Assembly (NCBI GenBank): GCA_964526915.1
Contig: CAZGMS010000148.1
Location: 19,063 to 83,062, forward strand
Reading direction: 5' to 3'
Length of the DNA: 64,000 nt
Source of the DNA: an uncultured Nitrospirales bacterium
GTDB taxonomy: Bacteria; UBA10199; JADGCS01
Shown: positions 7,761 to 64,000 of the stretch, in pieces
Layout of the letters: each line of letters begins with the position of its first letter
Position numbering within the stretch: position 1 is the first letter of the stretch
Position numbers and translations under genes: made by a program
Notes under the pieces: generated by a model
The model's database searches: none
Seen by the model: the letters and a program-made list of their open reading frames with translations, nothing else
Told to the model about the DNA's origin: nothing

Positions 7761-7816
7761 TAGTTCATTGTTTCATTTCTTGATTGATTCATTCATTCAT
7801 TCATTTGTTTATTCGC

Positions 7817-7854
7817 CCCTCGCCTGCCCTGAGCGCAGTCGAAGGGTCCCTCGT
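7817..7854. repeat. 38-bp dispersed intergenic repeat, copy 2
   Basis: Exact match to 6682-6719. Confidence 0.7.
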
Positions 7855-7870: not shown

Positions 7871-8971
7871 TCACTCCAGCCTGATCCTCGGATCCACAAC
7901 CACATACATCAGATCCGCCAACAGCAGGCTGAGCAGGGTCAAAAAAGCACCAATCGTGGCCGTGCCCATGATCAGGTTATGATCGCGACCTAACACGGCC
8001 TCGAACGACAACATCCCCATGCCAGGGATTGAAAATATTTGTTCAATGATTACAGACCCGCCCAGCAGAGCGGGCAACAAGGTCCCCATCAAGGTCACAA
8101 AGGGAATGAGGGCATTGCGCAGGCCGTGTTTGAACAACACCTTGGATTCAGGCAACCCCTTGGCCCTGGCGGTTCTGATGTAGTCTTGACTGATCACGTC
8201 CAAAAAATTACTGCGCGAAAAACGGGTCAAAAAAGCAAAGCCACCAATGGTTGAGGCGGCGATAGGCAACACCAAATGCCAGGCCACATCGAACATTTTT
8301 CCCAATAAACCAAGCTGATTAAAATAATCGGATTTGTATCCAACGATGGGAAACCAGTTCAGGTATTCACCCCCCGCCAGAAACATGAGCAACATGGTCG
8401 CCACCCAGAACGTGGGCAGAGAATACAACACAAACAATTTGACCATCACCATTTTGTCGATCACGCTCCCCTGTTTAATCGCCGACCAAATCCCCAAAGG
8501 AACGGAGACTGAGTACACAATGAGGATCGCGAGGATATTGATGAGCAAGGTGATCGGCAAGGCGCTCTTGATTTTTTCGATGACTGGTTGTCGATCCTTG
8601 AACGACCGGCCAAAATCGAGCACAGCGATGTTTCTGAGCCACTTGAGATAAAACACGGTGTTCTCACCAACATATTTGGCTGTCTTGTAAGACCTGTCTT
8701 GCTCATAGTCCGCCAAGGCCTTCTTTTTACCCGAAACAGCATCGCTAATTTTGCGGGCAAATTCCAGATACTCTTCGGACAACTGGATGGCGGGGGTTTC
8801 GCTCTTGAGGACAGCGGCCAGCGCGTCGGCATCCACACCCTCTTCCACGAACATGAGCTTGAGTTTGACCGGATCACCGGGAGCGAGCTTCATGATGAGG
8901 AACGTCATGAACGTGATCCCGATGAGTGTGGGAATCATGAGGAGGAGGCGTTTGAATATATAGAAAAACAT
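7871..8971 (-). CDS. oppB: oligopeptide ABC transporter permease (OppB/DppB-like)
   Basis: Start ATG 8971 (MFFYIFKRLLLMIPTLIGITF, the canonical OppB N-terminus); EAA motif IRTARAKGLPESKVLFKHGLRNALIP. Confidence 0.85.
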   Translation of the reverse strand: MFFYIFKRLLLMIPTLIGITFMTFLIMKLAPGDPVKLKLMFVEEGVDADALAAVLKSETPAIQLSEEYLEFARKISDAVSGKKKALADYEQDRSYKTAKYVGENTVFYLKWLRNIAVLDFGRSFKDRQPVIEKIKSALPITLLINILAILIVYSVSVPLGIWSAIKQGSVIDKMVMVKLFVLYSLPTFWVATMLLMFLAGGEYLNWFPIVGYKSDYFNQLGLLGKMFDVAWHLVLPIAASTIGGFAFLTRFSRSNFLDVISQDYIRTARAKGLPESKVLFKHGLRNALIPFVTLMGTLLPALLGGSVIIEQIFSIPGMGMLSFEAVLGRDHNLIMGTATIGAFLTLLSLLLADLMYVVVDPRIRLE

Positions 8972-50009: not shown

Positions 50010-50385
50010 GGGGCCGATAACGGTTTCGACGGGGATGACGCGTGTATGATCGGCAGGCCGAGTTGAAGGCACTCGTTAAACGACTTCACAAATCCAATTG
50101 CAAACGATAACTTTGCACAGGCACCTGAGCTTGCTCTGGCTGCTTGACCTGATCTCATAGTAGATCACGTTCATGTTGTGGATCGCCTCAGTCGATGGCA
50201 TGGGCGTAACCAATTGGGGCTCGCTTGGTAGTTTTGTCTACTGGCTACCGGGCTAAATAAAAATGGGCTGGCCAAAAAAATCCGGTCACGGGGAAACTTT
50301 TTTGGTAAGATTCAAACTGTGGCTAAGCTTGTAGAAGGCATACACAAACATTTTCGGACGTGGGTTCGACTCCCACCGGCTCCAC
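50010..50385 (+). ncRNA. ssrA: tmRNA (ssrA), one-piece
   Basis: 5' GGGGCCGATAACGGTTTCGACGGGG; 3' GGACGTGGGTTCGACTCCCACCGGCTCCA(C) tRNA-like end; internal tag reading frame GCA AAC GAT AAC TTT GCA CAG GCA CCT GAG CTT GCT CTG GCT GCT TGA gives ANDNFAQAPELALAA. Confidence 0.85.
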
Positions 50386-50430: not shown

Positions 50431-50458
50431 AAAAACCCACGTAACAGTGGGTTTTTTA
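50431..50458 (+). terminator. intrinsic terminator downstream of tmRNA
   Basis: AAAAACCCAC-GTAACA-GTGGGTTTTTT. Confidence 0.6.
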
Positions 50459-50564: not shown

Positions 50565-51809
50565 ATGAACTTAAGCAACACGCAAATCAATAACGCCAAA
50601 TCTTTGGATTCACCCTACCGACTTTTTGATGGAGACGGTCTATATTTGGAAGTGCGCCCCAATGGTTGCAAGTGGTGGCGGTTCAAATTCAGATTTAACG
50701 GAAAAGAAAATCGCATCTCGTTTGGTGTGTATCCCGAAATCAGTCTTAAACGCGCACGCGAAAGACGCGAAGAGGCTCGTAGGCAAATTGCCGAGGGCAT
50801 CAACCCAAGCGAACATCGCAAGGCCACCAAATTCGCCAAGGCAGAAAGTGACGCCATGACGTTTGAGGTGATTGCGCGAGAATGGATTGAGCATAAATCC
50901 AAAAACAAAAAACAGTCGGGTGGATTTGTAGAACGCTACGCCAAAGATTTGCTGAGACGAATTGAATACGATCTGTTTGGCCCTTTGGGCAAAAAACCGA
51001 TCACCGAAATTACAGCACCAGAAATCTTGCGTGTTTTACGAAAGGTTGAAGAGCGCGGTGCGTACGAAACCGCTCACAGGCTTTTGCAAAACTGCGGACA
51101 GATTTTTCGTTACGCCATTTCTACCAGCCGTGCCAAATACGATCCGTCACGTGATCTTAAAGACGCCCTTGTGCCTGTTTTACGCAAACACCACGCCGCC
51201 ATTATTGATCCCAACGGTGTAGCGCATCTTTTAAGGGCCATTGATGGTTACAAAGGCAGCCCCATTGTTCGCGCCGCTCTTAAGCTTGCCCCACTCTTTT
51301 TTGTGAGACCTGGGGAACTCAGAAAAGCAGAATGGACAGAGATCAACCTTGATACCGCCGAGTGGAACATCCCTGCCGAGCGGATGAAGATGAAACAACC
51401 GCATCTTGTGCCGTTGTGCAGACAAGCCATTGAGGTTTTAAAAGACCTGCACACCGTTACAGGTTCGGGACAATATCTGTTCCCCAATCCACGCTGCAGA
51501 CTCAAACCCATGAGCGACAACGCCATCCTCGCCGCACTGCGCGGCATGGGGTACACAACTGATGAAATGACAGGTCATGGTTTTAGAGCAATGGCCAGAA
51601 CGATTATGGATGAAGTGCTTGGCATCCGTCCTGATTTTATTGAACACCAACTCGCTCACGCTGTCCATGATCCCCTTGGCCGAGCGTATAACCGCACGTC
51701 ACACCTTCTTGAACGCAAAAAAATGATGCAACAATGGGGGGATTATTTGGACAATCTTAGAATGAATGTGGGTGCGGAGGTGATACCGCTGAAAAGGGAG
51801 GCGCTGTGA
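50565..51809 (+). CDS. tyrosine-type integrase (phage P4-like, DUF4102 N-terminal)
   Basis: N-terminal LSDxxxxxAK...GLYLxVxPxGxKxWRFKxRxNGKE; catalytic-domain R...HxxR...Y region (HGFRAMARTIM, HQLAHAV). Confidence 0.85.
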   Translation: MNLSNTQINNAKSLDSPYRLFDGDGLYLEVRPNGCKWWRFKFRFNGKENRISFGVYPEISLKRARERREEARRQIAEGINPSEHRKATKFAKAESDAMTFEVIAREWIEHKSKNKKQSGGFVERYAKDLLRRIEYDLFGPLGKKPITEITAPEILRVLRKVEERGAYETAHRLLQNCGQIFRYAISTSRAKYDPSRDLKDALVPVLRKHHAAIIDPNGVAHLLRAIDGYKGSPIVRAALKLAPLFFVRPGELRKAEWTEINLDTAEWNIPAERMKMKQPHLVPLCRQAIEVLKDLHTVTGSGQYLFPNPRCRLKPMSDNAILAALRGMGYTTDEMTGHGFRAMARTIMDEVLGIRPDFIEHQLAHAVHDPLGRAYNRTSHLLERKKMMQQWGDYLDNLRMNVGAEVIPLKREAL

Positions 51810-52615
51810 AAACAAACGGCAAACTACTTCCACAGCAGACCCTGCTCATTGAACTTGAGCACGTTTTAGAAACATTCACATTGGAAGAACGCAAGAGCCT
51901 ATTCGAGTACTGGGAGCATCGTGACAAATCACATGTGTTAAGAAGAGACTGGTGGCACCAAAAATTCTACCGCAGAAAAGATGAAAATGAAAAAAATGAT
52001 GGTTTTGTTGAACAATCTTTTGCCCTGAAGAGCATTGTTGTTACAGAAAAACCATACACCAGAGAGATGTTTTATAATTCCGACGGAAGATTTGGTTTGC
52101 CTAATAAACCGGTTGCCTACTTTTCAGACTGGCTGACCGGCACATGTGAGATGCTACCCGCCTTTCGAGACAATCCTCTTCTGACATCAGAGGAGTTGGA
52201 ATTATACATGTCACGCAAACTTGACCCTGATCCCACGGGGGGAAAGCTATGTGGTTATCCACGTGTATTCTTCTTACATCCTGATGTTGTGATACTAAAT
52301 TTATCCAGGCCGACAGCTTCTTTTTTTAGTATTTTGCAAAACAAATCCAGAGATCTGTTTGGCTTTGTTGTCAGCAGTATAATGAGTAGAGACAAATCGT
52401 GTTATCTATTAACCCAGGTTATTTCTTCTTTTGCCCACAAGTTCGGATTTCATGGGGCATTATATCGCTCGGTTCGCATTCCTCGTGATTGGCACTTTAC
52501 CGGTGGTGAAAATTTGGTTTTGTTTTGTGACCAAATCAATGGTGTGCCCATTGTAGAAAGAAGGATGGATAGGATTGAACGTAACAAAACTCACAACTTG
52601 AAAAACAATCAATGA
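51806..52615 (+). CDS. RES-domain-like protein (putative NAD-targeting toxin family), co-transcribed with the integrase
   Basis: GTG start overlaps the integrase stop (GTGA) with GGGAGG SD; GRFGLPNKPVAYFSDWLTGTCE and RSVRIP...ENLVLFCD resemble the R...E...S core of RES domains. Confidence 0.4.
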   Translation: MKTNGKLLPQQTLLIELEHVLETFTLEERKSLFEYWEHRDKSHVLRRDWWHQKFYRRKDENEKNDGFVEQSFALKSIVVTEKPYTREMFYNSDGRFGLPNKPVAYFSDWLTGTCEMLPAFRDNPLLTSEELELYMSRKLDPDPTGGKLCGYPRVFFLHPDVVILNLSRPTASFFSILQNKSRDLFGFVVSSIMSRDKSCYLLTQVISSFAHKFGFHGALYRSVRIPRDWHFTGGENLVLFCDQINGVPIVERRMDRIERNKTHNLKNNQ

Positions 52616-52630: not shown

Positions 52631-52951
52631 ATGGCTAAGGGTGGTCACAGGGAAGGTGCGGGGAGAAAAAAGGGAAGCGCAAACCTTCTTACTCAAAAAC
52701 TTCGCGAACAGATCAACGCGCCCAGGCTGATTCGGTTGTTACAAGAAATTGCCGATGGCACGGTTGAAGGTGGTGCGTCTGTGGCCGAGAGAAAAGACGC
52801 GGCCATCGCCCTGCTACGCAAGGTATTGCCAGATTGCCGAACGGAAGATGTTGGGGCATCAACTGCCCCCACGACGGTTGTTATTCACAGCAATGTGCCG
52901 ATGGGGTTTAGTAGGAATAAAGAGAATTTTGATCTAATAAAGCATCAGTAA
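52631..52951 (+). CDS. hypothetical protein with basic N-terminus (MAKGGHREGAGRKKGS)
   Basis: ORF with AAGGAG SD; the N-terminus resembles phage small DNA-binding / terminase-small-subunit leaders; otherwise unassignable. Confidence 0.3.
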   Translation: MAKGGHREGAGRKKGSANLLTQKLREQINAPRLIRLLQEIADGTVEGGASVAERKDAAIALLRKVLPDCRTEDVGASTAPTTVVIHSNVPMGFSRNKENFDLIKHQ

Positions 52952-53008
52952 CCAGTTAAAATTATTCATTTTTTGATTAATATTCATCTAAAACCCATCT
53001 AAATTCAT

Positions 53009-54634
53009 CTAATTTGAACGGGTGATCCGCCACCGTCCTTTAAGTGATGATCCGTCATAAAATATCTTTCCGTTCTTTTTTAGTTCCTGAAGTATGTTGG
53101 AAATATCTTGAGGCAGATATTCAGAGAAGCCACTGATCAGGTCTTCGCGCCTAGACGGTTTCCCGGCTCGTATATGATTCAGTACCAATTCTTTGATCTG
53201 GTCGCGAGTCAGGCCTTTTAATCTTGTATGTTTTCCACTTTGACCAATTGTTTCGTAATAGCGGTGGGAAAGAATGTATTTGGTACCACTCGTTTTACCA
53301 ACAGCTTCAATAATACCCGCTTTAAGAAATTTTTTCTTTAAGTCGGCATTAACCATGGATTCCCCGCGTCTAACACGCTCCAATTCCAAAATTTCGTGAA
53401 CATCCAAAAGAATTTGATTTTCGCGTGCGACCTTTTCCAAAAACAAAACAAACGACTTGTCCTGCACCTGTGCTGGAATTTTAATGACAACCGAATAATG
53501 GTCACTACTCGACAAATCAGGAAGCCCTTTGCCATCACGAATACAGTGCGCAAAAATATCGTCCATTCCCTGGCCGGATCGTTCGACGAGCCCCACCTTT
53601 TCAAGCGTTTCGGCAAGTCGTCGGTTACGCCAACTCTTTTGATCAATCACATTTTCGGGTGTAATGCCCGGCAAAAACCCACCGGGGCTTTCAATCGTAA
53701 TGGACTTAGAATTGGCAAGAATGAATATCGAGCGACCACGGATTGAATAATCGCGGTGCGTGATGGCGTTTAACCAAGCCTCGCGAACTGATTTTTCATC
53801 AAACGCCATGATCTCTTTTTGAAAAAGCCCGTCTTGATACGGAATACGAAAGTTACGGGCATTAATAATCTGCCAAACGACATCATGAATTTTAAAATAG
53901 GGCTCGCGCCAACATTCGCGAAAGTCGTGGTGCGTCTGTTCCGCTGTGCTACGCCACTCAAAGATGATCTCTGAGTCAGCCAACAGTCTGTCCAAAAATG
54001 ATTTTTTACCCAAGAGAATCAGGCAGGCGTAATTCAGCCGGTTGTTTTCTATGAGATTGAGGGCATCCAAAATTTTGTGGGTGCTGTAGTTGAGAATTTC
54101 TGGACGTTTCTTTTTGTCGGCCCAAATACTTTTTAAGTTCTTAAGCGCATCGGGATCAAGATCATCAGTGGTCATGCCCTCAACAATAGTGGCCGAAAAA
54201 TCGGGCTGTACCTCATTAAGAATTTGACGTGTTTTATGGTCATCCATTTCAACAAGCGATTCACCGACTCTCATGGGATAGGTGTAATCGCCTGTTGATC
54301 GAACGCGCTGTCCTTTGTGTCTGGCGGGGATATGAAAGACGAGCACGCGCCCGTCTGAATGATTTAGTTCTTCAACATCGATTCTGATTTTAAGCTTTTG
54401 CAACAGTTCGTGTGGGAGTTTGTTATAAGTTCCAGAAAAGGCATTTGTGCCAACGACAACCCGACCATCGGTCACTCCCAATATCAGTTTGCCACCACCT
54501 TCGTTGGCTAGGGCTGCGCAATAATCGGGCAAATCCTTGTCTTTGCTAAAGCTGTTTTTTGCCGTCTTGAATTCAAGATTCAAGCCTTCTGGTTGTTTCA
54601 GCCAATGGGTGAATTGTTCGAGAGTGGTTTTCAT
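53009..54634 (-). CDS. AlbA_2 (Schlafen-like) + HATPase_c_4 + C-terminal wHTH protein
   Basis: N-terminal EGLNLEFKTAKNSF...ALANEGGGKLILGV (AlbA_2 core); central HRDYS...GRSIFI...ITIESPGG (HATPase_c_4); ATG 54634 with GGAGGG SD. Confidence 0.55.
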   Translation of the reverse strand: MKTTLEQFTHWLKQPEGLNLEFKTAKNSFSKDKDLPDYCAALANEGGGKLILGVTDGRVVVGTNAFSGTYNKLPHELLQKLKIRIDVEELNHSDGRVLVFHIPARHKGQRVRSTGDYTYPMRVGESLVEMDDHKTRQILNEVQPDFSATIVEGMTTDDLDPDALKNLKSIWADKKKRPEILNYSTHKILDALNLIENNRLNYACLILLGKKSFLDRLLADSEIIFEWRSTAEQTHHDFRECWREPYFKIHDVVWQIINARNFRIPYQDGLFQKEIMAFDEKSVREAWLNAITHRDYSIRGRSIFILANSKSITIESPGGFLPGITPENVIDQKSWRNRRLAETLEKVGLVERSGQGMDDIFAHCIRDGKGLPDLSSSDHYSVVIKIPAQVQDKSFVLFLEKVARENQILLDVHEILELERVRRGESMVNADLKKKFLKAGIIEAVGKTSGTKYILSHRYYETIGQSGKHTRLKGLTRDQIKELVLNHIRAGKPSRREDLISGFSEYLPQDISNILQELKKNGKIFYDGSSLKGRWRITRSN

Positions 54635-54737
54635 TGGGTTGAACCCTCCAGCATTTTGATGGCATCCTCAGCATGGCCATAAGAACCCATGAATACCTTG
54701 TGTCTGTCTTTTGTGGTGTTGAAGAGGGTGGATTTGA

Positions 54738-54755
54738 GGGGGGGGGCGTTTTTTT
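54738..54755. repeat. homopolymeric G9 tract followed by T7 in the intergenic region upstream of the Schlafen-like gene
   Basis: GAGGGGGGGGGCGTTTTTTTGAG read directly from the sequence. Confidence 0.6.
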
Positions 54756-54816
54756 GAGTCCTCGGCTTCTTGTTTTGTTTTGGTTTCATAATCTATCATT
54801 TCGAAAGATTGCAGAG

Positions 54817-56694
54817 TCACCACAATTCATCTGCAACGATTCCTGTAATGTCGGAAATAATTCTCTTTAATTCTTGAACTTTTGTATTTGTACTATCTTC
54901 AAGATACGTACTGAGGTCGTTTTGGCAAAAATTGATAACATGGAAGAGTCCCTTTTGAATGCCAAGATAAATTTCTAAATCACCTTCTTTTAAGACATAA
55001 GTTCCATTCGGATATTCCTCTTCAATTTTGGCAACAACATCAGTATGGTTTGCTAAAAATTGGGAAGCAAGTTGCACAGTATTTATTTTGGTAGCAGTTT
55101 CGGTTGGATAATACTTCCAAGCAGAGTCAAGGTCGGTTATAAAAAATGTTTTCAAACCAAACGGCTCAAATAAACTTCTCCATTTTGAATCGTTATTTTT
55201 GTCATTGATATCCAGAATTGTAATATCTTGAACTAACCCTTTTTTGATATTCATTTCTATCTCACCAAGTAAAGCGCGAAAAAAATATCGGTCAGAATCA
55301 CCTTCAACGAGCAATATTTTGCTCCCAAAAAATGCGTGGGTAGATCGCTTGTTGTCCAGAATTTTTACGAGCCATTTTTGATCAGTGGTAATGTTAGGCC
55401 TATTGATTTTTGTGTAACCATTGTTATCAAGAGAAAGGCGTACCACATTACTAATAGTTGCAGAATTTATAAGAGATTCCGAATGGGTTACAAGAATATA
55501 CTGGCAACCTTGTTCGATATTTAGTTTTTCTATGACACGGAGATATTCGCTCTGAAATTGATAGTGTAAATGGATTTCTGGCTCATCAATGATAACAAGG
55601 CCACCTTTCAAATCGCCTCGTCCATACGCCTCGAAAACTAAATGTGTTATGGCTTTTTGTCCTGCGCTTAGAGAGTTTATATTTGAAACGATTCTATTTC
55701 TTTTCGTATCAACAAATGAAAAAGTGAAGTTCCACTGGGAATAATCAAGGAGTTTAATTTCAACTTTGAGATTAACAATATTGAGCTTGTCATTAATGTT
55801 TTTTATAAAATCTAGATCGTTGGCTGCGGTTTCGCATTCTTTTTGATCTCTTTTGGTTCTTATCAAGTCAAAGCACGTTCCTGCCATTCTCAATCTAACC
55901 AAACTAAAAATTGATGGCTCGCTATTTTCGGCCGAGTTCATGCTCCTAGAGTATTCCGCCAATCTGATTTCTGAAATTTGTTTTGGGGCTGTATTCCCAC
56001 CACCAAGAGAAACATGAGCAGCGTAGGAGTTGTAATTTCTATATCCGCCAATCAATGCAAATGATTCGGCTAAATTGTTTATTGGCGTGCCTGGATTTTC
56101 TTCGTTATATATTTCTATTATCTCTTTATACAAGTTGTATGCGCTTAAATATGTATAGCCAATGTCTTGGTTGGTTTGGATAGCATAAGTTTTATTCACG
56201 CTGTCTAAAGTGATATCAAGTTGATATTCTCCCTGAGGTGTGCCGTCAGCAAACATTTGTTCTGCAGAATAAAGGCCGATTATTGGTGCGAGCTTATCCT
56301 TATTGTTCTTGAGGTGTTGGATATTCGCTCGGTCAATATCATCCAATTCCACTACAACTCGAATTTTTTGTTCCCTGTCCTCAAAATCGTAATTTCTATC
56401 AAGACGAAAGTCCCGGTAATATTGAACATTCGTTATTTTCGATAAAATGTTCCTTTTGTCATTAACATTAATCGTTGTCCTTTTTGTGTATAAATCCGCA
56501 TTTCTGTTGTACGGAACAAAAACAACTCTCCTAAAAATAAAATTGATCACTTCTAACACTGTTGATTTGCCAGAGCCATTTTGACCAATCAGAATGCTTA
56601 AATTTTCATCAAAGGTGATTTTTTGCGCATGCGCAATGTTAGCAACATAGGCGAAGCTAAGCACATTTGAAATTTGGAGAGCTTTGATTTTCAT
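54817..56694 (-). CDS. OLD-family nuclease-like protein (N-terminal ABC-type ATPase + C-terminal Toprim/DUF4435-like domain)
   Basis: Walker A GQNGSGKST, signature LSAGQK, Walker B VIIDEPEIHLH, H-loop VTHS; C-terminal ILLVEGDSDRYFF Toprim motif. Confidence 0.6.
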   Translation of the reverse strand: MKIKALQISNVLSFAYVANIAHAQKITFDENLSILIGQNGSGKSTVLEVINFIFRRVVFVPYNRNADLYTKRTTINVNDKRNILSKITNVQYYRDFRLDRNYDFEDREQKIRVVVELDDIDRANIQHLKNNKDKLAPIIGLYSAEQMFADGTPQGEYQLDITLDSVNKTYAIQTNQDIGYTYLSAYNLYKEIIEIYNEENPGTPINNLAESFALIGGYRNYNSYAAHVSLGGGNTAPKQISEIRLAEYSRSMNSAENSEPSIFSLVRLRMAGTCFDLIRTKRDQKECETAANDLDFIKNINDKLNIVNLKVEIKLLDYSQWNFTFSFVDTKRNRIVSNINSLSAGQKAITHLVFEAYGRGDLKGGLVIIDEPEIHLHYQFQSEYLRVIEKLNIEQGCQYILVTHSESLINSATISNVVRLSLDNNGYTKINRPNITTDQKWLVKILDNKRSTHAFFGSKILLVEGDSDRYFFRALLGEIEMNIKKGLVQDITILDINDKNNDSKWRSLFEPFGLKTFFITDLDSAWKYYPTETATKINTVQLASQFLANHTDVVAKIEEEYPNGTYVLKEGDLEIYLGIQKGLFHVINFCQNDLSTYLEDSTNTKVQELKRIISDITGIVADELW

Positions 56695-57659
56695 AAGCTT
56701 CTCTCCACAATTTTGATTTTATGTTCGGTGGGACCGTAGAGCTTGTCACCCGAATCATGTCGTTTCTTATGCTCCCCGTAATATTCGGTAAGTTTTGTGC
56801 ATATACGGTTTTTCAGATCAGGAAATTCATTAAAGGGATAATATGTCACTGTGTTTTTTACTGACTCAAGAAAGGATTTTAATTCGCTGGTCTGCTGTGA
56901 TTGGGCATCTGTAAACAAAAACCGGTGTTTGCTATGCGCAGCATTGAACTCTTTTTTAACCGCGGGTCTTATTTCATTACGAAACATTCCAATGTAAACG
57001 TCACAGTTCTTCACAGCTTCCAAATAAAGTTCTTCCGGGGGCTCTGGGGCTGGGCTGGCATCTGATTCGAATACAAACACATGATAGAGTCGTCCAATCA
57101 CTGGATCAGTTTCTATGAGAAATTTTAGAAGTTTTCGTTCATGCAAAAACTCATCCTGTGCAGAACTCAAAAAAACCTTGAGTTTATCATTGAGCTTAAG
57201 GCCCATCTCTTCCCATAATATGTGACAGTTTAATTTTGTTTTGCTTATTTCTATCTCAATTTGATGTGCTTGTTGATCCTTTATTCTGCCGGCTGTCATT
57301 GTGTCACCACGCATCAAATCATCAATGACCTGAAATAGATGATCCTTGTTATGAAAAGAAAACAACTCCTGCTCAACCATCGTCCTAAAATCACCACTTG
57401 GCAGTACATTGTACTCCACACAAAGGCGCCTTACCTCGCCAATGCAATCATCGACAATTCTTCTTCTTGTGGCCATAAATAATTCAATCTGATTATGATG
57501 CCTCATGCCGGAATTTAATGTACCCCTTGCGTTATGCCCATTATCTATTTTTATTTTGTCCTTTCGTGACTCATCAAGGTGAGCTTCAGAAATTCTTGTT
57601 TTATGATTTTGCCACAAATCAAAAATGCGTTTTTCAAATGGATTAAGTTGATTGTTCAT
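56691..57659 (-). CDS. hypothetical protein, operon partner of unknown function (possible C-terminal DUF4062-like Rossmann region)
   Basis: ATGA overlaps on both sides; no confident motif; the C-terminal segment LYHVFVFESDA...CDVYIGMFRNE weakly resembles the DUF4062 nucleoside-deoxyribosyltransferase-like pattern. Confidence 0.3.
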   Translation of the reverse strand: MNNQLNPFEKRIFDLWQNHKTRISEAHLDESRKDKIKIDNGHNARGTLNSGMRHHNQIELFMATRRRIVDDCIGEVRRLCVEYNVLPSGDFRTMVEQELFSFHNKDHLFQVIDDLMRGDTMTAGRIKDQQAHQIEIEISKTKLNCHILWEEMGLKLNDKLKVFLSSAQDEFLHERKLLKFLIETDPVIGRLYHVFVFESDASPAPEPPEELYLEAVKNCDVYIGMFRNEIRPAVKKEFNAAHSKHRFLFTDAQSQQTSELKSFLESVKNTVTYYPFNEFPDLKNRICTKLTEYYGEHKKRHDSGDKLYGPTEHKIKIVERSL

Positions 57660-60600
57660 TTCCCCACCCCCTCCACAATTTTGATTTCGTCATCAGTGAG
57701 GCCGTAGAGGGAATAGACAAGCTGGTCGATTTTCTTTTCGTATTCTTTGACTTGAACCTGTTTTTGCGGATTTTTTAAGTAGTCATCGGATTTGGTGATC
57801 TCTAATATTTTATCAACAATTTCGATGAGGGGTTTTTGATTTGATTCTGAAACCGTTACAAGCGGCAAATTTATTAATGGCTCTTTATCAATCTGAAAAT
57901 TATTTCCCTGCATTTTGCCTTTGTGGCGCAACCAAAATACAACTAACTTTGAATTTAACAAGGCAACCAAATATTTAAGACTCATTCTTTCCGTTTTGAT
58001 TACATAAAATGTTGCGGAAACGTAACTGTCAAAATCAACATAACTAAAAGTTGGCTCTTCACACTTTCTTGCAACAATAATTTTTTCTCCGATAAAGTAT
58101 CTCTCATCTCTGGATCTGTGCAACCCGTATGGTTTATTGTCAGAAGTGATTACTTTTGAAAATTGATCGAGATGTTTTTTGATATTGGGATAGCCTTCAA
58201 TCTTTTTTACGTTTTTAAAACTTGAGTCGGTATAAATCACCCATTCTTTATTATTTGGATTCCCATACCAGCGAAATAATTCTTTGGTCGTATAAGATGG
58301 TTTAATTAGGCCACGCTCATTTTCTGTAAAAGGTATTCTCTCTCTTTCAGAATTGCTAAGTACAAATATGCCATCTCCAATACTGTAATTACCACCCAAC
58401 TTTGTCTGGCTTGCTTTGTTAACATAATCTTGAGGATATACGATGCCTTGCTTAACCTCTGTATCACAATCCAACTGAATATTTTGTTTGGAACATATTT
58501 TTTCTAAAACTGGGCTGACAGCTGAATTGCTAAAAGTGAGGGGTTTATTCACCATCTCTGTTCTGATTATATTTGGTTCTAAGTATTCTGTTTTATTATT
58601 TTGGCATTTGCCCAAAACAGCTAGAACATCCTCGAACTGCAATTCCTGCTCAATGAGCCTGCGGAAATCAAAATTATAGTTTTCATTGCTAGCGTCTTTT
58701 TGAAAAATCATCACCATAGTTTGAATGCCTGCACATTCAAATATTTTGTAGTCTCCAAAATCAACTAAATGCAAAATCTGGGTGTCACTCATTATCTTGT
58801 TCCTGAGCACAGAGGCACCATAGCTCGTCACCCAGTTGTTTTGAGCAATAAAAGACAAAATGCCAGTGTTGTTTCTGAGAAGATCAATGCTCTTACATGC
58901 AAAGAAATACCACAGGTCCATTTTCCCCTGATAATAGGGGGACTTTCTAAGCCCATCGAAAGCCGATTTTTGGGTATATTCTTTAATATACGGCGGATTC
59001 GCGATTACGATATCGAACCCGCCATTCTCAAACACCTCAGCAAAGTGAAATTTCCAAAGAAAAAATGGTTTTGTTTTTGATTTCTTGAATTGCTCTAGTT
59101 TCTTGAGTTCTGAAGTTTTGTTTTGTTCCTGAAGCGTGGCTTCAATAAGGCACCATTCCATCTTATCGATTTGATTTCTCAGTTTCTTTTTATTCTCTTT
59201 TTCATTCGTTTCAAAATACTCTTTATGCAACCGTTTTAATTCGTCACTCAAAGATTGAGCCCCTAACTGTTCGTATAAGTTAAGCTCTCTTTGCTGCTTT
59301 GTCTTTTCAAAGCCTTTTAACTCGGTAGCTAAAGCCATTTTTCTCGCATCCAATGCTTTTCTACAATTTTCCAATACTAGTAAATCGGCAGGTTTTTCTA
59401 AGTTATTCTTCCTCATCCAATTCGGATTTCTCTGATAATACTTTAGCCGCTCACTATCATTTTCCTGCAATTGCAGATCAATTTTACTAATTTGAGCAAC
59501 AATGTCTTGTTTTGATGTTTGAGAAAGATATTTTTCATCAAATAGTTTTACACCTTCATACTCCTCCAACAGACTATTGCCCTGCATGATTTTGAAATCC
59601 AAATTCGGTAAAGGCTGAATATCGTCTTTGTCCTCGTCAACCAATAGAGAAATAAAGAAACGTAACTTTGCTATTTCTACGGCAATTTGTTGAACGTCCA
59701 CGCCGTAAATGCACCTTTGAATTAAATACAGCTTCCTCCAATAATCAGGTTTCTTTGTCTGAAAATATTCTTTTATCTCTTTTATTGTCTTGGCTTTAAG
59801 GTTTTGGTCGGGGATCGCATCTGCAGATTTTAGCTGGGCTTGTTCCCAGAGTTTATTGTCGCGATCTACTTTATTAAGAATGAAAACCAGTTTGTTGAGC
59901 ACCCCCATGGGGAAGGCACCAGACCCAACCGCAGGATCAACAATTTTGACACTTTCAACCAGCTCTACCAACTTCTTTTTTTCCTGATCATTAAAAAGAT
60001 TTTCTTGGCTCTCGACAGAGAATAATACGCCCAATTTTTCATCCAGATTTTCTATGCCCTCAAGGTGTGTTTTGAAATAGACTTTGAGCGATTCGCTCAC
60101 CATGTAATCAACAATCTCCCTTCGCGTGTAATAACTACCTGTGGCCTTGCGAGCCGTGGTGGAGGTTTCGGGATTAAAGCTAGCCAGAAGGTTTTCAAAA
60201 ACTCTACCCAAAAGTTCAGGGTCCAGGGCAACCTCGGCATCGTCTGGTGAGTTTTCGTCAATTGTGAAGTTAAACGAAGACAGAATATTTAGCAGTCCGC
60301 TGACCAGATATTTTTTGTTTTTAGTGTCAAAATCTTTATTGAGATCAACCTTTTTCTCTTGGCTGAAAAACAGTTCATTGGGAACAACTGGCTGATTTTT
60401 TTTTGTTCTAGAAAATCCGTCTATGATAATTCCATTGGGCCTATCATCCAAACACTCAAAGAGACCGCCGTTCAAAAATGGAATGCTCTCAAAATATTTT
60501 TTCAAATCTTCCGGACTTTTAAAAAGCTCCTGATAACGAAAGACGTATTGATTACCAAAATCGGAATTGTATCCTTTGTGTCCTCTCGCCTCGCTACCAA

Positions 60601-61423
60601 AGTCCCGTTCTTCTTTTTTGGTGCTCAGCGTCGCAAAAAACAAATTCTGAAGAATGCCCGTGTAATAAGTGGTAGCTTCATCATCTAAACTCTTGAGAAT
60701 TGAATCGATGCTCTTTTTTTCAAACAATTCTCTTGGGACCAGACCTCGCTCTCGCATAAACCAGATAAAAATCATTCTGGTAATCAGTCTGATAACGGCA
60801 ATGTTTTTGCCGTTATCCTCTGCTATCGCATCTTTGGGAAATTGGGTTGTTTTTACAGCCCAAAAATACCAATAAGAAATGCGCTCGTAGAATTCTTTGG
60901 TAACCTTATCTACCGAGAAAGCATCTTTAATTTTTTCTAAACTGGAAAAATCACCGTCGCCGATTCGTTGTTTAAATGTTTTATTCGTAACTTGCAGTTC
61001 AGAACTGACAAAATAAGTAAATCGGCGGAAATTATTCCACTGCCGACGGGTGCCGATTGATTCTGGATAGACGAGAGAAAAACGAAAGTTTCCACTTGGA
61101 TCGTGGAAAACAAAAATACCTGCCGAAAACATCTGGTTTTCTGCCGACCTCAAGATGCTTTTAGCTTTTTCATACTGAGCCTTTTTGCCCAAACGCTCAG
61201 AAAGCTCTTTTTTAACCTTAAAGGAGCATACGATTAGACTGTCACCATCAGAAAAATTGATTTCACCAAGTTTCGTTCCATTTCCAAAGTCAGGGTCATC
61301 AAAGTGAGTATAATTCTCTCCGCCAGGCTTATATTGGCGGGTTTTTACTCGAAAATATTTGTTCAGCGTTTCAACAGAAAAATGTTCAATGAGGGCTTCT
61401 AAAATTTGTCTGGTTTCACTCAT
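57656..61423 (-). CDS. large N6-adenine DNA methyltransferase, PglX / DrmMI / Type IIG-like (about 1255 aa)
   Basis: SAM motif I VDPAVGSGAF, motif IV NPPY (IANPPYIKEY), C-terminal TaqI_C-like target-recognition region (LVALLNSKLVVFWL). Confidence 0.7.
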   Translation of the reverse strand: MSETRQILEALIEHFSVETLNKYFRVKTRQYKPGGENYTHFDDPDFGNGTKLGEINFSDGDSLIVCSFKVKKELSERLGKKAQYEKAKSILRSAENQMFSAGIFVFHDPSGNFRFSLVYPESIGTRRQWNNFRRFTYFVSSELQVTNKTFKQRIGDGDFSSLEKIKDAFSVDKVTKEFYERISYWYFWAVKTTQFPKDAIAEDNGKNIAVIRLITRMIFIWFMRERGLVPRELFEKKSIDSILKSLDDEATTYYTGILQNLFFATLSTKKEERDFGSEARGHKGYNSDFGNQYVFRYQELFKSPEDLKKYFESIPFLNGGLFECLDDRPNGIIIDGFSRTKKNQPVVPNELFFSQEKKVDLNKDFDTKNKKYLVSGLLNILSSFNFTIDENSPDDAEVALDPELLGRVFENLLASFNPETSTTARKATGSYYTRREIVDYMVSESLKVYFKTHLEGIENLDEKLGVLFSVESQENLFNDQEKKKLVELVESVKIVDPAVGSGAFPMGVLNKLVFILNKVDRDNKLWEQAQLKSADAIPDQNLKAKTIKEIKEYFQTKKPDYWRKLYLIQRCIYGVDVQQIAVEIAKLRFFISLLVDEDKDDIQPLPNLDFKIMQGNSLLEEYEGVKLFDEKYLSQTSKQDIVAQISKIDLQLQENDSERLKYYQRNPNWMRKNNLEKPADLLVLENCRKALDARKMALATELKGFEKTKQQRELNLYEQLGAQSLSDELKRLHKEYFETNEKENKKKLRNQIDKMEWCLIEATLQEQNKTSELKKLEQFKKSKTKPFFLWKFHFAEVFENGGFDIVIANPPYIKEYTQKSAFDGLRKSPYYQGKMDLWYFFACKSIDLLRNNTGILSFIAQNNWVTSYGASVLRNKIMSDTQILHLVDFGDYKIFECAGIQTMVMIFQKDASNENYNFDFRRLIEQELQFEDVLAVLGKCQNNKTEYLEPNIIRTEMVNKPLTFSNSAVSPVLEKICSKQNIQLDCDTEVKQGIVYPQDYVNKASQTKLGGNYSIGDGIFVLSNSERERIPFTENERGLIKPSYTTKELFRWYGNPNNKEWVIYTDSSFKNVKKIEGYPNIKKHLDQFSKVITSDNKPYGLHRSRDERYFIGEKIIVARKCEEPTFSYVDFDSYVSATFYVIKTERMSLKYLVALLNSKLVVFWLRHKGKMQGNNFQIDKEPLINLPLVTVSESNQKPLIEIVDKILEITKSDDYLKNPQKQVQVKEYEKKIDQLVYSLYGLTDDEIKIVEGVGK

Positions 61424-64000
61424 AGTTTCTTGTTTTCAATAGCAATGATGATTTCCCTTTTTTGATCTTTTAGCCGACTATTTTCTTTGACTAAATATTC
61501 TTCACCAAGTTCGTCTTTTAATTCCAAAAGATCTTTGACGAAAGCTTCTCTAATATTGGCAATTCGACGCAAGGTATAATCTGCCAAAGTGCCGTAGCTG
61601 AGAATGTCTTCTTTCAGCGTGCGCAGAAACTTTTTACAGGGCATCAGATTCTCGCTGGCGCTTTTGATCAGAAAGTTGAGATTGTTCAGCGCCTTCATCT
61701 CCAAGCTTTGCTCACTTGTTGGGCCTAAACGATAATTTCTGAAGTCCTGAATTGCCTGATAGGCCTGCCAAAATTGGTCGGTGTTCCATTGCAACGGTTT
61801 TTCATCCGGCAAACAAGCGATTTTTTCAAACACGTCTTCAAAAACAGTTTGATAGGATTCAACCTTTTCTGCGTCAGTGCGGGCTCCACTTACATACAGC
61901 CGCCCCTTTTTAAAAAACACCAAGAGTTCGTTTTCGTTGTACCCCTTCGAGGATTTAATGCGTGGCGGGTAATTATTAAGATTTTCTATCAATTCGGGAT
62001 GTTCTTTTTTAATTCTCAAAAACTCCTTCAAAACCTTAGTATAAAAACCTTCCTCCTCTTGATCGTCCGGATTTTGCTGAATACGCTTAAATAGACCTGC
62101 AGGGGTAGGTTCCTCTTCTATGTCAAAAATTTTGCAGTCTTCACCAAGTGCGTTGTGAATCAGGAACATCTTGTTGGCCGCGATCTCACGCGACTTAACA
62201 AGTTCCGCACCCTGCTCCGTGGGGAAAAAGTTAACAATGTATAACTCCTCAAAAACCTTCTTGCTGATACGATTGATTCGCCCCAGTCGCTGGATCACGC
62301 GCACGGGATTCCAAGGAATATCGTAGTTGATGACCATTCCAGCCCGATTAAGGTTGAATCCTTCGGAAATCTTGTCTGAAGAAAGAAGAAGCTCAAAGTC
62401 ATTCTCCTGCTCCGGATAAGAAGCATCGAAGTTTTTATTTATTTTAACAATTTTTGAAGCAGGCAAATCCCCTGCGACAACTAGCATTTTACCGCCATAA
62501 TGTTTTGAGAGTTTTTTTTCTAAATAGAGCACTGTATCAACGTATTCTGTAAAAATAATAATTTTCCGTTTGGGGGCCCCCTTTTTCGACGGCTTGGAAA
62601 ATTCATCCTCAAGGTGGTCTATTAGACAGGCTGCTTTTGGATCATGCTTTATCAAAGCTAATTTTGAAAGCTTGCATAATACTTCATCAAATAATTTTAA
62701 ATCCAACTCTATTGCTTCAATAAACCCTGCTCTATTTTTGAATTCCTTGAGTTTATAGCGCTTGTGGCTTTTAGGGTATTCACCTCGACTAATTTTTTTC
62801 TCATACTCAAGCAGATATTTTTCAATCTCATCATCGCCCAATTCGTAAATTTTGTCCAAAAGAGCCCGATCCAGTATATATTCATCGGTTTTCTTGATAA
62901 ATTGATAACTGTTTTCGGTAATTATTTTAAAATTCTTGATGCTTTGCTCAAAAGAGCCAAACGAACTTTCAAAACGCTTAACGAGCAAGCGGCGCATAAA
63001 ATCAAACAAATTTCGTTGTTGAATAAACTGACGATTGTCTTCCTCATTCCTTTTTTCATGGGGATCTCTTTCATATTCAAACGGCCGGTAGATAGCTCCT
63101 TTGAAACGTCCACCATTTTCGGGGTCTCCAAAATAGTTTTCAATAATTTCTGAGTAAAATTCTGACTGTTCTTTGTTTAATTCAAAGAACCATTCTTTTG
63201 GGCCTGCAACTTTTGATAATTCTTTGACCTCGTTTTTATAAAATGGATTGTTTTGCAAATCCAAACGATTGCGCCTGATCGTCACCGGTTCAATGACATT
63301 CCTGATTTGCCTGGCTAGGTAATGCGCTCTTCCTGTGATTTTTTTGAGATCAACAGTTCCATCCCCAAATAAGGTCTTATAGTAATTTTGTGCTTTAGTT
63401 CTTTTGTTCACATCTGAAGAATTCCAATATTTTTTAATATAACCAAGTCGGTCAAAAACACCCTTAAAGCCTTTGAATTGGTCAACGAGATTGCTTTCCA
63501 ATGTGATCGATGATTTTTTGGGGGTAATGAACAACTTAAGAAGCGAAAGAATGTCACCTGGTCGATTGTTAAATGGTGTTGCAGTCAATAGAATGACCTG
63601 TTTATTGCGGCAAATATTTTTGAGGATTTCATAATCTTGAGTGTCTTGATTTCTAAAACGATGGGCTTCATCAACAATCACAACCTCGATTTCTTTTGTT
63701 TTGTTAACATACTCTAGAGTGCTTTCCAGATCACCAAGGGACCGAACCTCCCAATTTTGAAGCCCGAATTCTTCGGTATATTTATTCCAACCTGAGTTCT
63801 TATTTCTGTCTCCAACAAGTCCGGGTGGACAGATAATGACGCCTCGCGTTTTGAGCTGTTTTGCAATGGCACAAGCAATGATGGTCTTACCGAGTCCCAC
63901 AACATCAGCCACAATGACGCCATGATTGTTTTCTATAATAGACAGTGCCTGCCTGACCGCATCGAGTTGATATTGGTAGGGTATATAGCCATTTTCTTCC
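61420..64000 (-). CDS. SNF2-family (SF2) helicase, 5'-truncated by the window end
   Basis: Q-motif/motif I PYQYQLDAVRQAL...VADVVGLGKT, motif II VIVDEAHRFRN, motif III LLTATPFNN, helicase C motifs FTEYVDT and QRLGRINR. Confidence 0.7.
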   Translation of the reverse strand, partial: EENGYIPYQYQLDAVRQALSIIENNHGVIVADVVGLGKTIIACAIAKQLKTRGVIICPPGLVGDRNKNSGWNKYTEEFGLQNWEVRSLGDLESTLEYVNKTKEIEVVIVDEAHRFRNQDTQDYEILKNICRNKQVILLTATPFNNRPGDILSLLKLFITPKKSSITLESNLVDQFKGFKGVFDRLGYIKKYWNSSDVNKRTKAQNYYKTLFGDGTVDLKKITGRAHYLARQIRNVIEPVTIRRNRLDLQNNPFYKNEVKELSKVAGPKEWFFELNKEQSEFYSEIIENYFGDPENGGRFKGAIYRPFEYERDPHEKRNEEDNRQFIQQRNLFDFMRRLLVKRFESSFGSFEQSIKNFKIITENSYQFIKKTDEYILDRALLDKIYELGDDEIEKYLLEYEKKISRGEYPKSHKRYKLKEFKNRAGFIEAIELDLKLFDEVLCKLSKLALIKHDPKAACLIDHLEDEFSKPSKKGAPKRKIIIFTEYVDTVLYLEKKLSKHYGGKMLVVAGDLPASKIVKINKNFDASYPEQENDFELLLSSDKISEGFNLNRAGMVINYDIPWNPVRVIQRLGRINRISKKVFEELYIVNFFPTEQGAELVKSREIAANKMFLIHNALGEDCKIFDIEEEPTPAGLFKRIQQNPDDQEEEGFYTKVLKEFLRIKKEHPELIENLNNYPPRIKSSKGYNENELLVFFKKGRLYVSGARTDAEKVESYQTVFEDVFEKIACLPDEKPLQWNTDQFWQAYQAIQDFRNYRLGPTSEQSLEMKALNNLNFLIKSASENLMPCKKFLRTLKEDILSYGTLADYTLRRIANIREAFVKDLLELKDELGEEYLVKENSRLKDQKREIIIAIENKKL

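What the first reader, a model, noticed from the sequence alone, without database searches (positions are those of the whole stretch)
51806..52615. RES-domain-like protein translationally coupled to the island integrase, with no separate Xre/DUF2384 antitoxin
The C-terminal 180 aa carry an R...Y...E...S...NLVLF pattern like RES-domain NAD-glycohydrolase toxins. Its GTG start overlaps the integrase stop. RES toxins normally follow a small Xre/ParS antitoxin gene. Here the only candidate neutraliser is the protein's own 90-aa N-terminal extension, or the small basic protein downstream (52631-52951). This could be a fused or reordered toxin-antitoxin acting as an island-maintenance module.
Basis: inference. 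Interest (0 to 1): 0.5.

Follow-up and report, generated by a model that had tools for sequence, protein, structure and literature searches.

The report
Stand-alone RES-fold enzyme on ssrA island
The gene does encode a divergent RES-fold (NAD+-consuming toxin-type) protein fused at its start to the island integrase gene, but it belongs to a rare family that has no conserved partner gene, so it looks like a self-contained, probably anti-phage, NAD+-depleting enzyme and not a two-gene toxin-antitoxin pair.

Summary

The RES core is aa ~86-248 and carries a ~25-aa insertion. R95 and E115 are invariant, and R86, Y105 and S222 are 93-98% conserved, in 59 relatives.

The protein belongs to a small family: 70 clusters among 1.84 billion representatives, median 237 aa. 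The family shares its own N-terminal module (WWHxKxY, ExPYxR). It matches neither the Xre/DUF2384 antitoxin domain nor the HEPN/RES-NTD1 domain that defines the recently described aRES defence proteins.

No neighbouring gene is conserved across 11 genomic contexts. The downstream 106-aa ORF is an orphan. Five contexts are mobile or defence islands, and the window's own island carries OLD-nuclease, type IIG R-M and SNF2 genes.

Best reading: a stand-alone, self-regulated RES NAD+ phosphorylase or ADP-ribosyltransferase that acts as defence cargo, analogous to aRES. This is inferred, not shown. The island-maintenance and downstream-antitoxin ideas are not supported. It is a new variant of a known kind, of moderate interest.

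The parts
50010..50385 (+). tmRNA (ssrA) gene. Its 3' end is the presumed integration site (attL side) of the island.
   Evidence: ARAGORN, tag peptide ANDNFAQAPELALAA. Rfam RF00023, 183 bits. No second copy of the 3' end occurs in the window, so attR lies beyond 64000.
50565..51809 (+). P4-type tyrosine integrase, 414 aa
   Evidence: Pfam Arm-DNA-bind_3, Phage_int_M and Phage_integrase. NCBIfam PRK09692, E 3e-73. It is 66% identical to the integrase of a second ssrA island, L005.
51794..51801 (+). Shine-Dalgarno-like AAGGGAGG inside the 3' end of the integrase gene, 4 nt before the GTG start
   Evidence: Read from the sequence. No other candidate start in the first 100 codons has one.
51806..52615 (+). 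Stand-alone RES-fold protein, 269 aa. Its GTG overlaps the integrase TGA (GTGA).
51806..52060 (+). Family-specific N-terminal module, aa 1-85. It has a helical hairpin (aa 4-22 and 26-45) followed by short strands, with the motifs DWWHQKFY and E81-x-P83-Y.
   Evidence: Secondary structure from the AF2 model, pLDDT 87-93 over aa 11-50. W49, K53, Y55, E81 and P83 are 92-98% conserved in 59 relatives. No Pfam hit at E<=10.
52061..52549 (+). RES catalytic core, aa 86-248, with R86, R95, Y105, E115, S222 and NLVLF
   Evidence: Pfam profile positions 16-147 of 157 once the insertion is removed. R95 and E115 are in 59 of 59 sequences, S222 in 58, R86 in 56 and Y105 in 55. hhalign puts R95, Y105 and E115 opposite MbcT R47, Y58 and E69.
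52166..52255 (+). Insertion in the RES core, aa ~121-150, with a helix at aa 128-135 and a loop
   Evidence: The Pfam alignment breaks here. Deleting aa 123-144 joins the two halves of the domain match. The region is present but poorly conserved across the family.
52631..52951 (+). Orphan 106-aa basic ORF, 15 nt downstream. It is probably not part of the RES function.
   Evidence: No Pfam, NCBIfam or PADLOC hit. Weak PHROG hits: phrog_15261, E 7e-6, and small-terminase-like, E 4e-3. Only an identical copy exists in 5.8 billion proteins. Absent beside all relatives.
53009..54634 (-). AlbA_2/HATPase_c_4 protein, 541 aa, convergent with the RES operon. It is island cargo.
   Evidence: Pfam. A 25%-identical protein also lies near the closest homologue in L001. 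This is a weak, possibly coincidental, association.

Best explanation
ORF 51806-52615 encodes a catalytically competent RES-fold enzyme. RES is the fold of the NAD+ phosphorylase and ADP-ribosyltransferase toxins MbcT, NatT, Res and ParT.

The protein belongs to a rare, previously undescribed family of about 237-aa proteins. In this family the RES core is preceded by a conserved ~85-aa module and no partner gene is conserved. The gene is the first cargo gene of a genomic island integrated at ssrA. It is read from the integrase transcript through a GTGA stop-start overlap with its own ribosome-binding site.

Most likely mechanism (inferred): the protein is kept inactive in cis, or by low expression. 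[quoted passage not shown] That is the behaviour of the stand-alone aRES defence proteins, and of fused toxin-antitoxins such as CapRel.

Shown: the ORF, the overlap, the RES fold, conservation of the catalytic residues, conservation of the N-terminal module, the absence of a conserved neighbour, and the defence-island setting. Inferred: enzymatic activity, substrate and product, auto-inhibition by the N-terminal module, a phage trigger, and a defence role.
For: RES fold and catalytic residues:
- Pfam RES scores above the gathering threshold, and all 10 close relatives hit it.
- The domain match becomes near full length when the insertion is removed.
- The AF2 model has pLDDT 82 and pTM 0.80.
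- R95 and E115 are invariant; S222, R86 and Y105 are 93-98% conserved in 59 sequences.
- The register matches MbcT R47, Y58 and E69. R27, R47 and Y58 are essential in MbcT (PMC6436930).

Coherent family:
- 70 clusters, almost all 214-275 aa, align from aa ~40 to ~243.

Stand-alone status:
- Eleven contexts share no neighbouring gene.
- No member or neighbour matches PF09722.

Defence or mobile setting:
- The window island carries OLD-family, type IIG R-M/DrmMI-like and SNF2/DrmD-like genes.
- L005 is a related ssrA island with HigB.
- L006 has Prim-Pol, a C5 methyltransferase and a serine recombinase.
- L007 has an integrase and GmrSD.

Precedent:
- Stand-alone RES proteins in defence islands deplete NAD+ on infection and produce ADPR-1''-P (bioRxiv 10.64898/2026.01.28.702374).
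Against: - No activity, toxicity or phage assay is possible here.
- The family fails the published aRES definition: no PF18870 domain, and 269 aa against 300-600.
- Only about 5 of 11 contexts are clearly mobile or defence-related. One relative sits among purine-biosynthesis genes in a 3.25-Mb genome (L018). The closest homologue is not next to an integrase.
- One relative has a 96-aa HTH_3 gene 25 nt upstream (L016), so a two-gene arrangement exists in at least one branch.
- I could not inspect model coordinates, so whether the N-terminal hairpin covers the active site is unknown.
- Sequence and profile searches never reached a solved RES toxin. hhalign to MbcT was weak.
Confidence: 0.55

Rival explanations
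1. Fused toxin-antitoxin acting as an addiction (island-maintenance) module. The N-terminal ~85 aa is a covalently attached antitoxin, and loss of the island kills the cell.
For: A conserved N-terminal module is present and no separate antitoxin gene is. The gene is tied to the integrase by the GTGA overlap. A related ssrA island also carries a copy, now decayed.
Against: Post-segregational killing needs an antitoxin that decays faster than the toxin, which one polypeptide does not provide without specific proteolysis. The module matches no antitoxin family. Relatives occur outside mobile elements. In L005 the copy is disrupted while the island persists.
Confidence: 0.1
2. Reordered two-gene toxin-antitoxin pair in which the downstream 106-aa basic protein (52631-52951) is the antitoxin.
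For: It lies on the same strand across a 15-nt gap with its own GGAG ribosome-binding site. It is small and basic.
Against: It is an orphan: only an identical copy exists among 5.8 billion proteins. It has no Pfam, NCBIfam or PADLOC hit. The ORFs downstream of relatives are unrelated or absent. Its weak PHROG similarity is to phage small-terminase-like proteins.
Confidence: 0.07
3. A non-suicidal cellular enzyme: a ParT-like ADP-ribosyltransferase or an NAD+-linked regulator acting on a specific protein or nucleic-acid target. It would not be primarily an immune effector, and it is carried on the island by chance.
Against: All characterised RES proteins are toxins or defence effectors. Mobile or defence contexts recur. 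The very patchy distribution, 1 of 185,579 species genomes, is typical of conflict genes and not of housekeeping genes.
Confidence: 0.2
4. Inactive or decaying RES remnant with no function.
For: The Pfam score is low. A pseudogenised copy exists in L005.
Against: The reading frame is intact and has a strong ribosome-binding site. R95 and E115 are invariant and S222, R86 and Y105 nearly so across 59 diverged relatives of 22-46% identity. The fold is predicted with confidence.
Confidence: 0.03

Closest known systems
aRES (antiphage stand-alone RES-domain proteins; Osterman et al., bioRxiv 10.64898/2026.01.28.702374)
   Same: A single RES-domain protein that is not in an operon with an antitoxin. 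It sits in a defence island and has an extra N-terminal region ahead of the RES core. The R/E/S residues are conserved.
   Different: aRES is defined as 300-600 aa with the HEPN/RES-NTD1 domain (PF18870). This protein is 269 aa (family median 237). Its ~85-aa N-terminal module matches neither PF18870 nor any other Pfam family. No activity or defence data exist for this family.
Xre-RES type II toxin-antitoxin toxins: MbcT (6FKG), Res of P. putida (9R35), ParT (6D0H), VPA0770 (8GUG)
   Different: Those toxins are 144-186 aa and follow a small Xre-HTH/DUF2384 antitoxin gene whose C-terminus plugs the active site. Here there is no such gene. The protein has an ~60-85-aa N-terminal extension and a ~25-aa insertion. 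Sequence similarity is too low for phmmer or profile searches to connect them.
NatT of the NatR-NatT system (8QNL; PMC11535050)
   Different: The NatT Flap works by clamping the separate antitoxin NatR, and no NatR-like gene is present here. Whether this helical hairpin occupies the same position as the Flap could not be checked without coordinates.
CapRel-type fused toxin-antitoxin defence proteins (PMC9712102)
   Same: The concept only: one polypeptide with a toxin domain and a cis-regulatory domain, with no partner gene, encoded on mobile or defence loci.
   Different: The fold (RelA/SpoT-like) and the chemistry are unrelated, and the domain order is reversed. Auto-inhibition is shown for CapRel and is only hypothesised here.

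Membership tests
RES domain (Pfam PF08808 / COG5654) | Match to the family HMM at or above the curated threshold | tested here: met
   26.5 bits against a gathering threshold of 23.2. 32.3 bits over profile positions 16-147 of 157 after removing the insertion. All 10 relatives match, best E 1.4e-10.
RES domain (Pfam PF08808 / COG5654) | Conserved Arg, Glu and Ser polar residues | tested here: met
   R95 in 59 of 59, E115 in 59 of 59 and S222 in 58 of 59 sequences. R95 and E115 align with MbcT R47 and E69.
RES domain (Pfam PF08808 / COG5654) | RES / ADP-ribosyltransferase-like fold | tested here: met
Xre-RES (MbcTA / ParST / Res-Xre / NatRT) type II toxin-antitoxin system | Adjacent upstream gene for an Xre-HTH antitoxin with the MbcA/ParS C-terminal toxin-binding domain (PF09722) | tested here: not met
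   The upstream gene is the integrase. No PF09722 hit was found in the protein, its N-terminus or any neighbour. Only 1 of 11 contexts has an HTH_3 gene upstream, and it lacks PF09722.
Xre-RES (MbcTA / ParST / Res-Xre / NatRT) type II toxin-antitoxin system | Toxin arrests growth and is neutralised by the cognate antitoxin | not testable with these tools
   Needs expression experiments.
aRES defence proteins | RES domain plus HEPN/RES-NTD1 (PF18870), 300-600 aa (definition in the Methods of 10.64898/2026.01.28.702374) | tested here: not met
   The protein is 269 aa. The family ranges from 214 to 275 aa. No PF18870 hit at E<=10 on the N-terminal 92 aa or at E<=1 in 10 members. hmmscan is less sensitive than the hhsearch used in the paper.
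aRES defence proteins | Stand-alone gene located in defence islands | tested here: met
   No neighbour is conserved across 11 contexts. The window island carries OLD, type IIG R-M and SNF2 genes. L006 and L007 carry R-M-type and GmrSD-type genes. About half of the contexts are not evidently defence-related.
aRES defence proteins | Infection-triggered NAD+ phosphorolysis to ADPR-1''-P, and phage protection | not testable with these tools
   Needs phage assays and LC-MS.
Fused (single-chain) toxin-antitoxin | A cis domain that inhibits the toxin domain and is released by a trigger | tested here: inconclusive
   The N-terminal module is conserved and confidently folded. It matches no antitoxin family.
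P4-type integrase island at ssrA | Tyrosine integrase with an Arm-DNA-bind_3 domain immediately 3' of the tmRNA gene | tested here: met
   attR was not found in the window, so the extent of the island is open.

The most novel reading that the evidence does not exclude
The family is a new, minimal class of single-protein NAD+-depleting immune effectors, in effect a 'mini-aRES'. A novel ~85-aa N-terminal module (a helical hairpin plus the WWHxKxY and ExPYxR motifs), and not HEPN/RES-NTD1 or a separate Xre antitoxin, both gates the RES active site and senses infection. It is carried as the integrase-coupled first cargo gene of ssrA islands.
Probability: 0.3. Interest if true: 0.55.

Novelty: new variant of a known kind. 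Interest (0 to 1): 0.4.

Why it matters
RES domains were long known only as the toxin half of Xre-RES pairs. In 2026 stand-alone RES proteins (aRES) were shown to be phage-defence NAD+ phosphorylases. This locus points to a second, shorter stand-alone architecture with a different N-terminal module. If it is active, it would widen the range of NAD+-depleting immunity. It would also offer a compact (~240 aa) system for studying how a RES active site is held off without an antitoxin. In addition, it shows that the integrase-proximal slot of ssrA islands can carry such a gene under stop-start coupling. The family is rare, mostly seen in metagenomes and wholly uncharacterised, so the practical impact is modest until its activity is shown.

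Tried and rejected
Searches that found nothing:
- phmmer and profile searches of PDB sequences with the protein, a 2-sequence profile and a 59-sequence profile reached no RES structure. The hits were chance matches to glutamate dehydrogenase, cyclin E and IgG.
- NCBIfam, PADLOC and PHROGs gave nothing for the RES protein.
- tblastn against PLSDB plasmids and INPHARED phages gave no match.
- Pattern scans of IMG/VR and JGI metagenome contigs gave no relative. The GTDB genome scan gave one MAG.
- Foldseek against BFVD gave only weak ART-PolyVal matches.

Ideas considered and rejected:
- A type III RNA antitoxin or repeat array near the gene. Only a 10-nt x3 repeat at 52982-53012 and chance short repeats were found.
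- An internal promoter for the RES gene. None was found on the + strand.
- An alternative later start codon. Those at L26, V44, M88 and L98 lack a ribosome-binding site, and M88 and L98 would remove conserved residues.
- A functional link with the AlbA_2/HATPase_c_4 gene. It is seen near the gene in 2 loci but is only 25% identical and belongs to a very common family, so I treat it as unproven.
- The upstream ~200-aa genes in L011, L013 and L014 as a conserved partner. They are unrelated to each other.

Full report
**1. The observation**

The window has an open reading frame at 51806-52615 on the + strand, 269 aa, starting with GTG. The sequence ...AAAAGGGAGGCGCTGTGAAAACA... shows that the GTG (51806-51808) shares two bases with the TGA stop of the upstream gene (51807-51809). 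An AAGGGAGG ribosome-binding site lies 4 nt before the GTG. None of the other in-frame start candidates in the first 100 codons (L26, V44, M88, L98) has such a site.

The upstream gene (50565-51809) is a P4-type tyrosine integrase with Arm-DNA-bind_3, Phage_int_M and Phage_integrase domains. It lies 180 nt after a tmRNA gene at 50010-50385. The finding therefore sits at the start of an island integrated at ssrA. The other end of the island is beyond the window.

**2. Is it a RES domain?**

Yes, on four lines of evidence.

- Pfam RES (PF08808) scores 26.5 bits against a threshold of 23.2 (E 7e-6), but only over aa 157-248, which is profile positions 65-146. When I removed aa 123-144, the match grew to profile positions 16-147 of 157 and 32.3 bits. 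The whole domain is therefore present (aa ~86-248), interrupted by an insertion of about 25 residues.
- All ten close relatives match RES, best E 1.4e-10.
- A profile alignment to MbcT is weak statistically but falls in the expected register: R95 with R47, Y105 with Y58 and E115 with E69 (the MbcT sequence was verified). In MbcT, R27, R47 and Y58 are essential (PMC6436930). By position, R86 in the first strand (P-Y-T-R) would correspond to MbcT R27; this last mapping is my inference.

**3. The family**

The word-indexed search found only an identical copy and one 51%-identical protein. A profile search raised this to ten.

The exhaustive phmmer scan of 1.84 billion cluster representatives found 70 clusters at E<=1e-3. 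Almost all are 214-275 aa and align from query residue ~40 to ~243.

Conservation in a 59-sequence alignment:
- R95 and E115 are invariant.
- S222 is in 58 of 59 sequences, R86 in 56, Y105 in 55 and R224 in 54.
- The region before the RES core is conserved too: W49 95%, K53 92%, Y55 95%, E81 95% and P83 98%.

The first ~40 residues vary in sequence. In this protein they are predicted with confidence as a helical hairpin, helices 4-22 and 26-45. The 'N-terminal extension' is therefore a family-defining module and not an artefact of start-codon choice.

The module matches no Pfam family at E<=10. No member matches the antitoxin domain PF09722 or HEPN/RES-NTD1 PF18870.

The family is rare. One relative was found among 185,579 species-representative genomes, a Deltaproteobacteria MAG. 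None was found in PLSDB plasmids, INPHARED phages, IMG/VR or the JGI contig scan.

**4. Partner genes**

I looked at eleven genomic contexts. I then compared all neighbouring ORFs within 2.5 kb of the gene in ten of these loci, all against all.

Only two things recur:
- the integrase, 66% identical between the window and L005;
- an AlbA_2/HATPase_c_4 protein, 25% identical between the window and L001.

The immediate upstream genes differ from locus to locus:
- the integrase (window);
- a divergent tRNA synthetase (L001);
- a zinc-ribbon ORF after a HigB/HTH-M78 pair (L005);
- a 345-aa ORF after a C5 methyltransferase (L006);
- GmrSD (L007);
- a 71-aa ORF (L009);
- a secreted protein (L011);
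- a 202-aa membrane protein (L013);
- a 201-aa protein with an Rx5H motif (L014);
- a 96-aa HTH_3/HTH_37 protein (L016);
- an Smr-domain protein (L018).

Only L016 resembles a toxin-antitoxin layout, and its HTH protein lacks PF09722.

The downstream 106-aa ORF of the window (52631-52951) has only an identical copy among 5.8 billion proteins. Its only family hits are weak phage small-terminase-like PHROG matches. Nothing related follows any homologue.

There are no tandem repeats or other signs of an RNA antitoxin. The family is best described as stand-alone.

**5. Setting**

Downstream of the RES gene and the orphan ORF, the island carries:
- an AlbA_2/HATPase_c_4 protein;
- an OLD-family ATPase-TOPRIM nuclease;
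- a 322-aa unknown protein;
- a 1255-aa type IIG R-M/DrmMI-like enzyme;
- an SNF2/DrmD-like helicase.

This is a defence island. L005 is a second ssrA island in another organism (tmRNA tag ANSNQKVALAA). It has a related integrase and a disrupted copy of the RES-family gene. L006 and L007 are also mobile or defence loci. In contrast, L001/L010 and L018 are not obviously mobile.

**6. Mechanism**

The shown facts support an intact RES enzyme that has no conserved partner and carries its own conserved N-terminal module.

[quoted passage not shown] This is the reaction of MbcT (PMC6436930), NatT (PMC11535050) and aRES (bioRxiv 10.64898/2026.01.28.702374). ParT-like protein ADP-ribosylation is the alternative.

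A free RES toxin is usually lethal, and no antitoxin is present. The protein must therefore be held off by something else. I consider two options: cis inhibition by the N-terminal module or the insertion, or weak expression through the integrase transcript.

The nearest functional precedents are aRES and the fused toxin-antitoxin CapRel. aRES proteins are stand-alone RES proteins in defence islands that deplete NAD+ only on infection. CapRel is auto-inhibited in cis and released by a phage protein (PMC9712102). NatT shows that helix-loop-helix additions near the N-terminus of RES domains control access to the active site, and that such additions arose repeatedly.

All of this is inference. I could not see model coordinates, so I cannot say whether the hairpin covers the pocket.

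**7. Comparison and novelty**

The protein is a member of the RES superfamily: the HMM, the catalytic residues and the fold all pass. It is not a member of the Xre-RES toxin-antitoxin systems, because it has no antitoxin gene. It also does not meet the published aRES definition, which requires PF18870 and 300-600 aa.

It works most like aRES. I rate it a new variant of a known kind: a shorter stand-alone RES architecture with a different N-terminal module.

**8.

- The RES assignment is right.
- The 'no separate antitoxin' remark is right, and it generalises to the family.
- The downstream-ORF and island-maintenance ideas are not supported.
- The 'own N-terminus as neutraliser' idea remains possible but untested.

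Interest is moderate (0.4). The family is undescribed and the idea is easy to test, but the concept of stand-alone RES defence proteins has already been published.

Noticed in passing
window 54631-63912 (- strand): A run of overlapping or abutting minus-strand genes: a 52-aa ORF, an OLD-family AAA_15+TOPRIM nuclease (54817-56694), a 322-aa protein with no hit in any library (56691-57659), a 1255-aa type IIG R-M/DrmMI-like enzyme (57656-61423) and an SNF2/DrmD-like helicase (61420-63912). It looks like a composite defence operon, DISARM-like or a type IIG enzyme with a helicase. The helicase ORF begins right at its Walker-A motif (GLGKT), so its true N-terminus may lie in another frame or upstream.
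   Followed up: partly
L005 4095-8619: A second ssrA island in a different organism (tmRNA tag ANSNQKVALAA). Its integrase is 66% identical. It carries a HigB-like toxin, an HTH_3/Peptidase_M78 gene and a disrupted copy of the same RES-family gene (pieces at 7664-7840 and 8001-8432). This is followed by a 23-aa remnant matching the integrase C-terminus (8401-8619). The pattern suggests recurrent carriage and decay of this gene in ssrA islands.
   Followed up: partly
window 52631-52951: The 106-aa basic ORF is an orphan. The only database copy is identical and is named 'ACD_62C00169G0009, uncultured bacterium', which suggests the window comes from a groundwater (ACD) metagenome bin. Its N-terminal GGHREGAGRKKGS stretch gives weak phage small-terminase-like PHROG hits.
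   Followed up: partly
window 53009-54634 (-) and L001 11921-13387 (-): An AlbA_2 (Schlafen-like) + HATPase_c_4 protein lies convergent to the RES gene, both here and near the closest homologue. The two are only 25% identical. This could be coincidence or a loose functional association.
   Followed up: partly
L016 50-340: In one relative (P0011) a 96-aa HTH_3/HTH_37 gene ends 25 nt before the RES-family gene. This is the only toxin-antitoxin-like layout among 11 contexts. The contig is too short to tell whether the HTH protein belongs to an upstream HigB-type toxin instead.
   Followed up: partly
L018 9376-12288: Relative P0017 sits in a 3.25-Mb genome between an Smr-domain gene and guaA, with guaB and purF/L/Q/S nearby. 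This is a non-mobile, nucleotide-metabolism neighbourhood.
   Followed up: no
L014 45-650: The 201-aa gene upstream of relative P0009 has an R-x5-H motif (IRNICAGHP) reminiscent of HEPN nucleases, but it has no Pfam hit.
   Followed up: no
window 52982-53012: Three copies of a 10-nt unit (ATTCATCTAA) lie in the gap between the 106-aa ORF and the 3' end of the AlbA_2 gene.
   Followed up: no
window 50431-50456: A perfect 10-bp stem-loop with flanking A and T runs lies just after the tmRNA gene, between it and the integrase gene. It is a terminator-like hairpin that could work in both directions.
   Followed up: no
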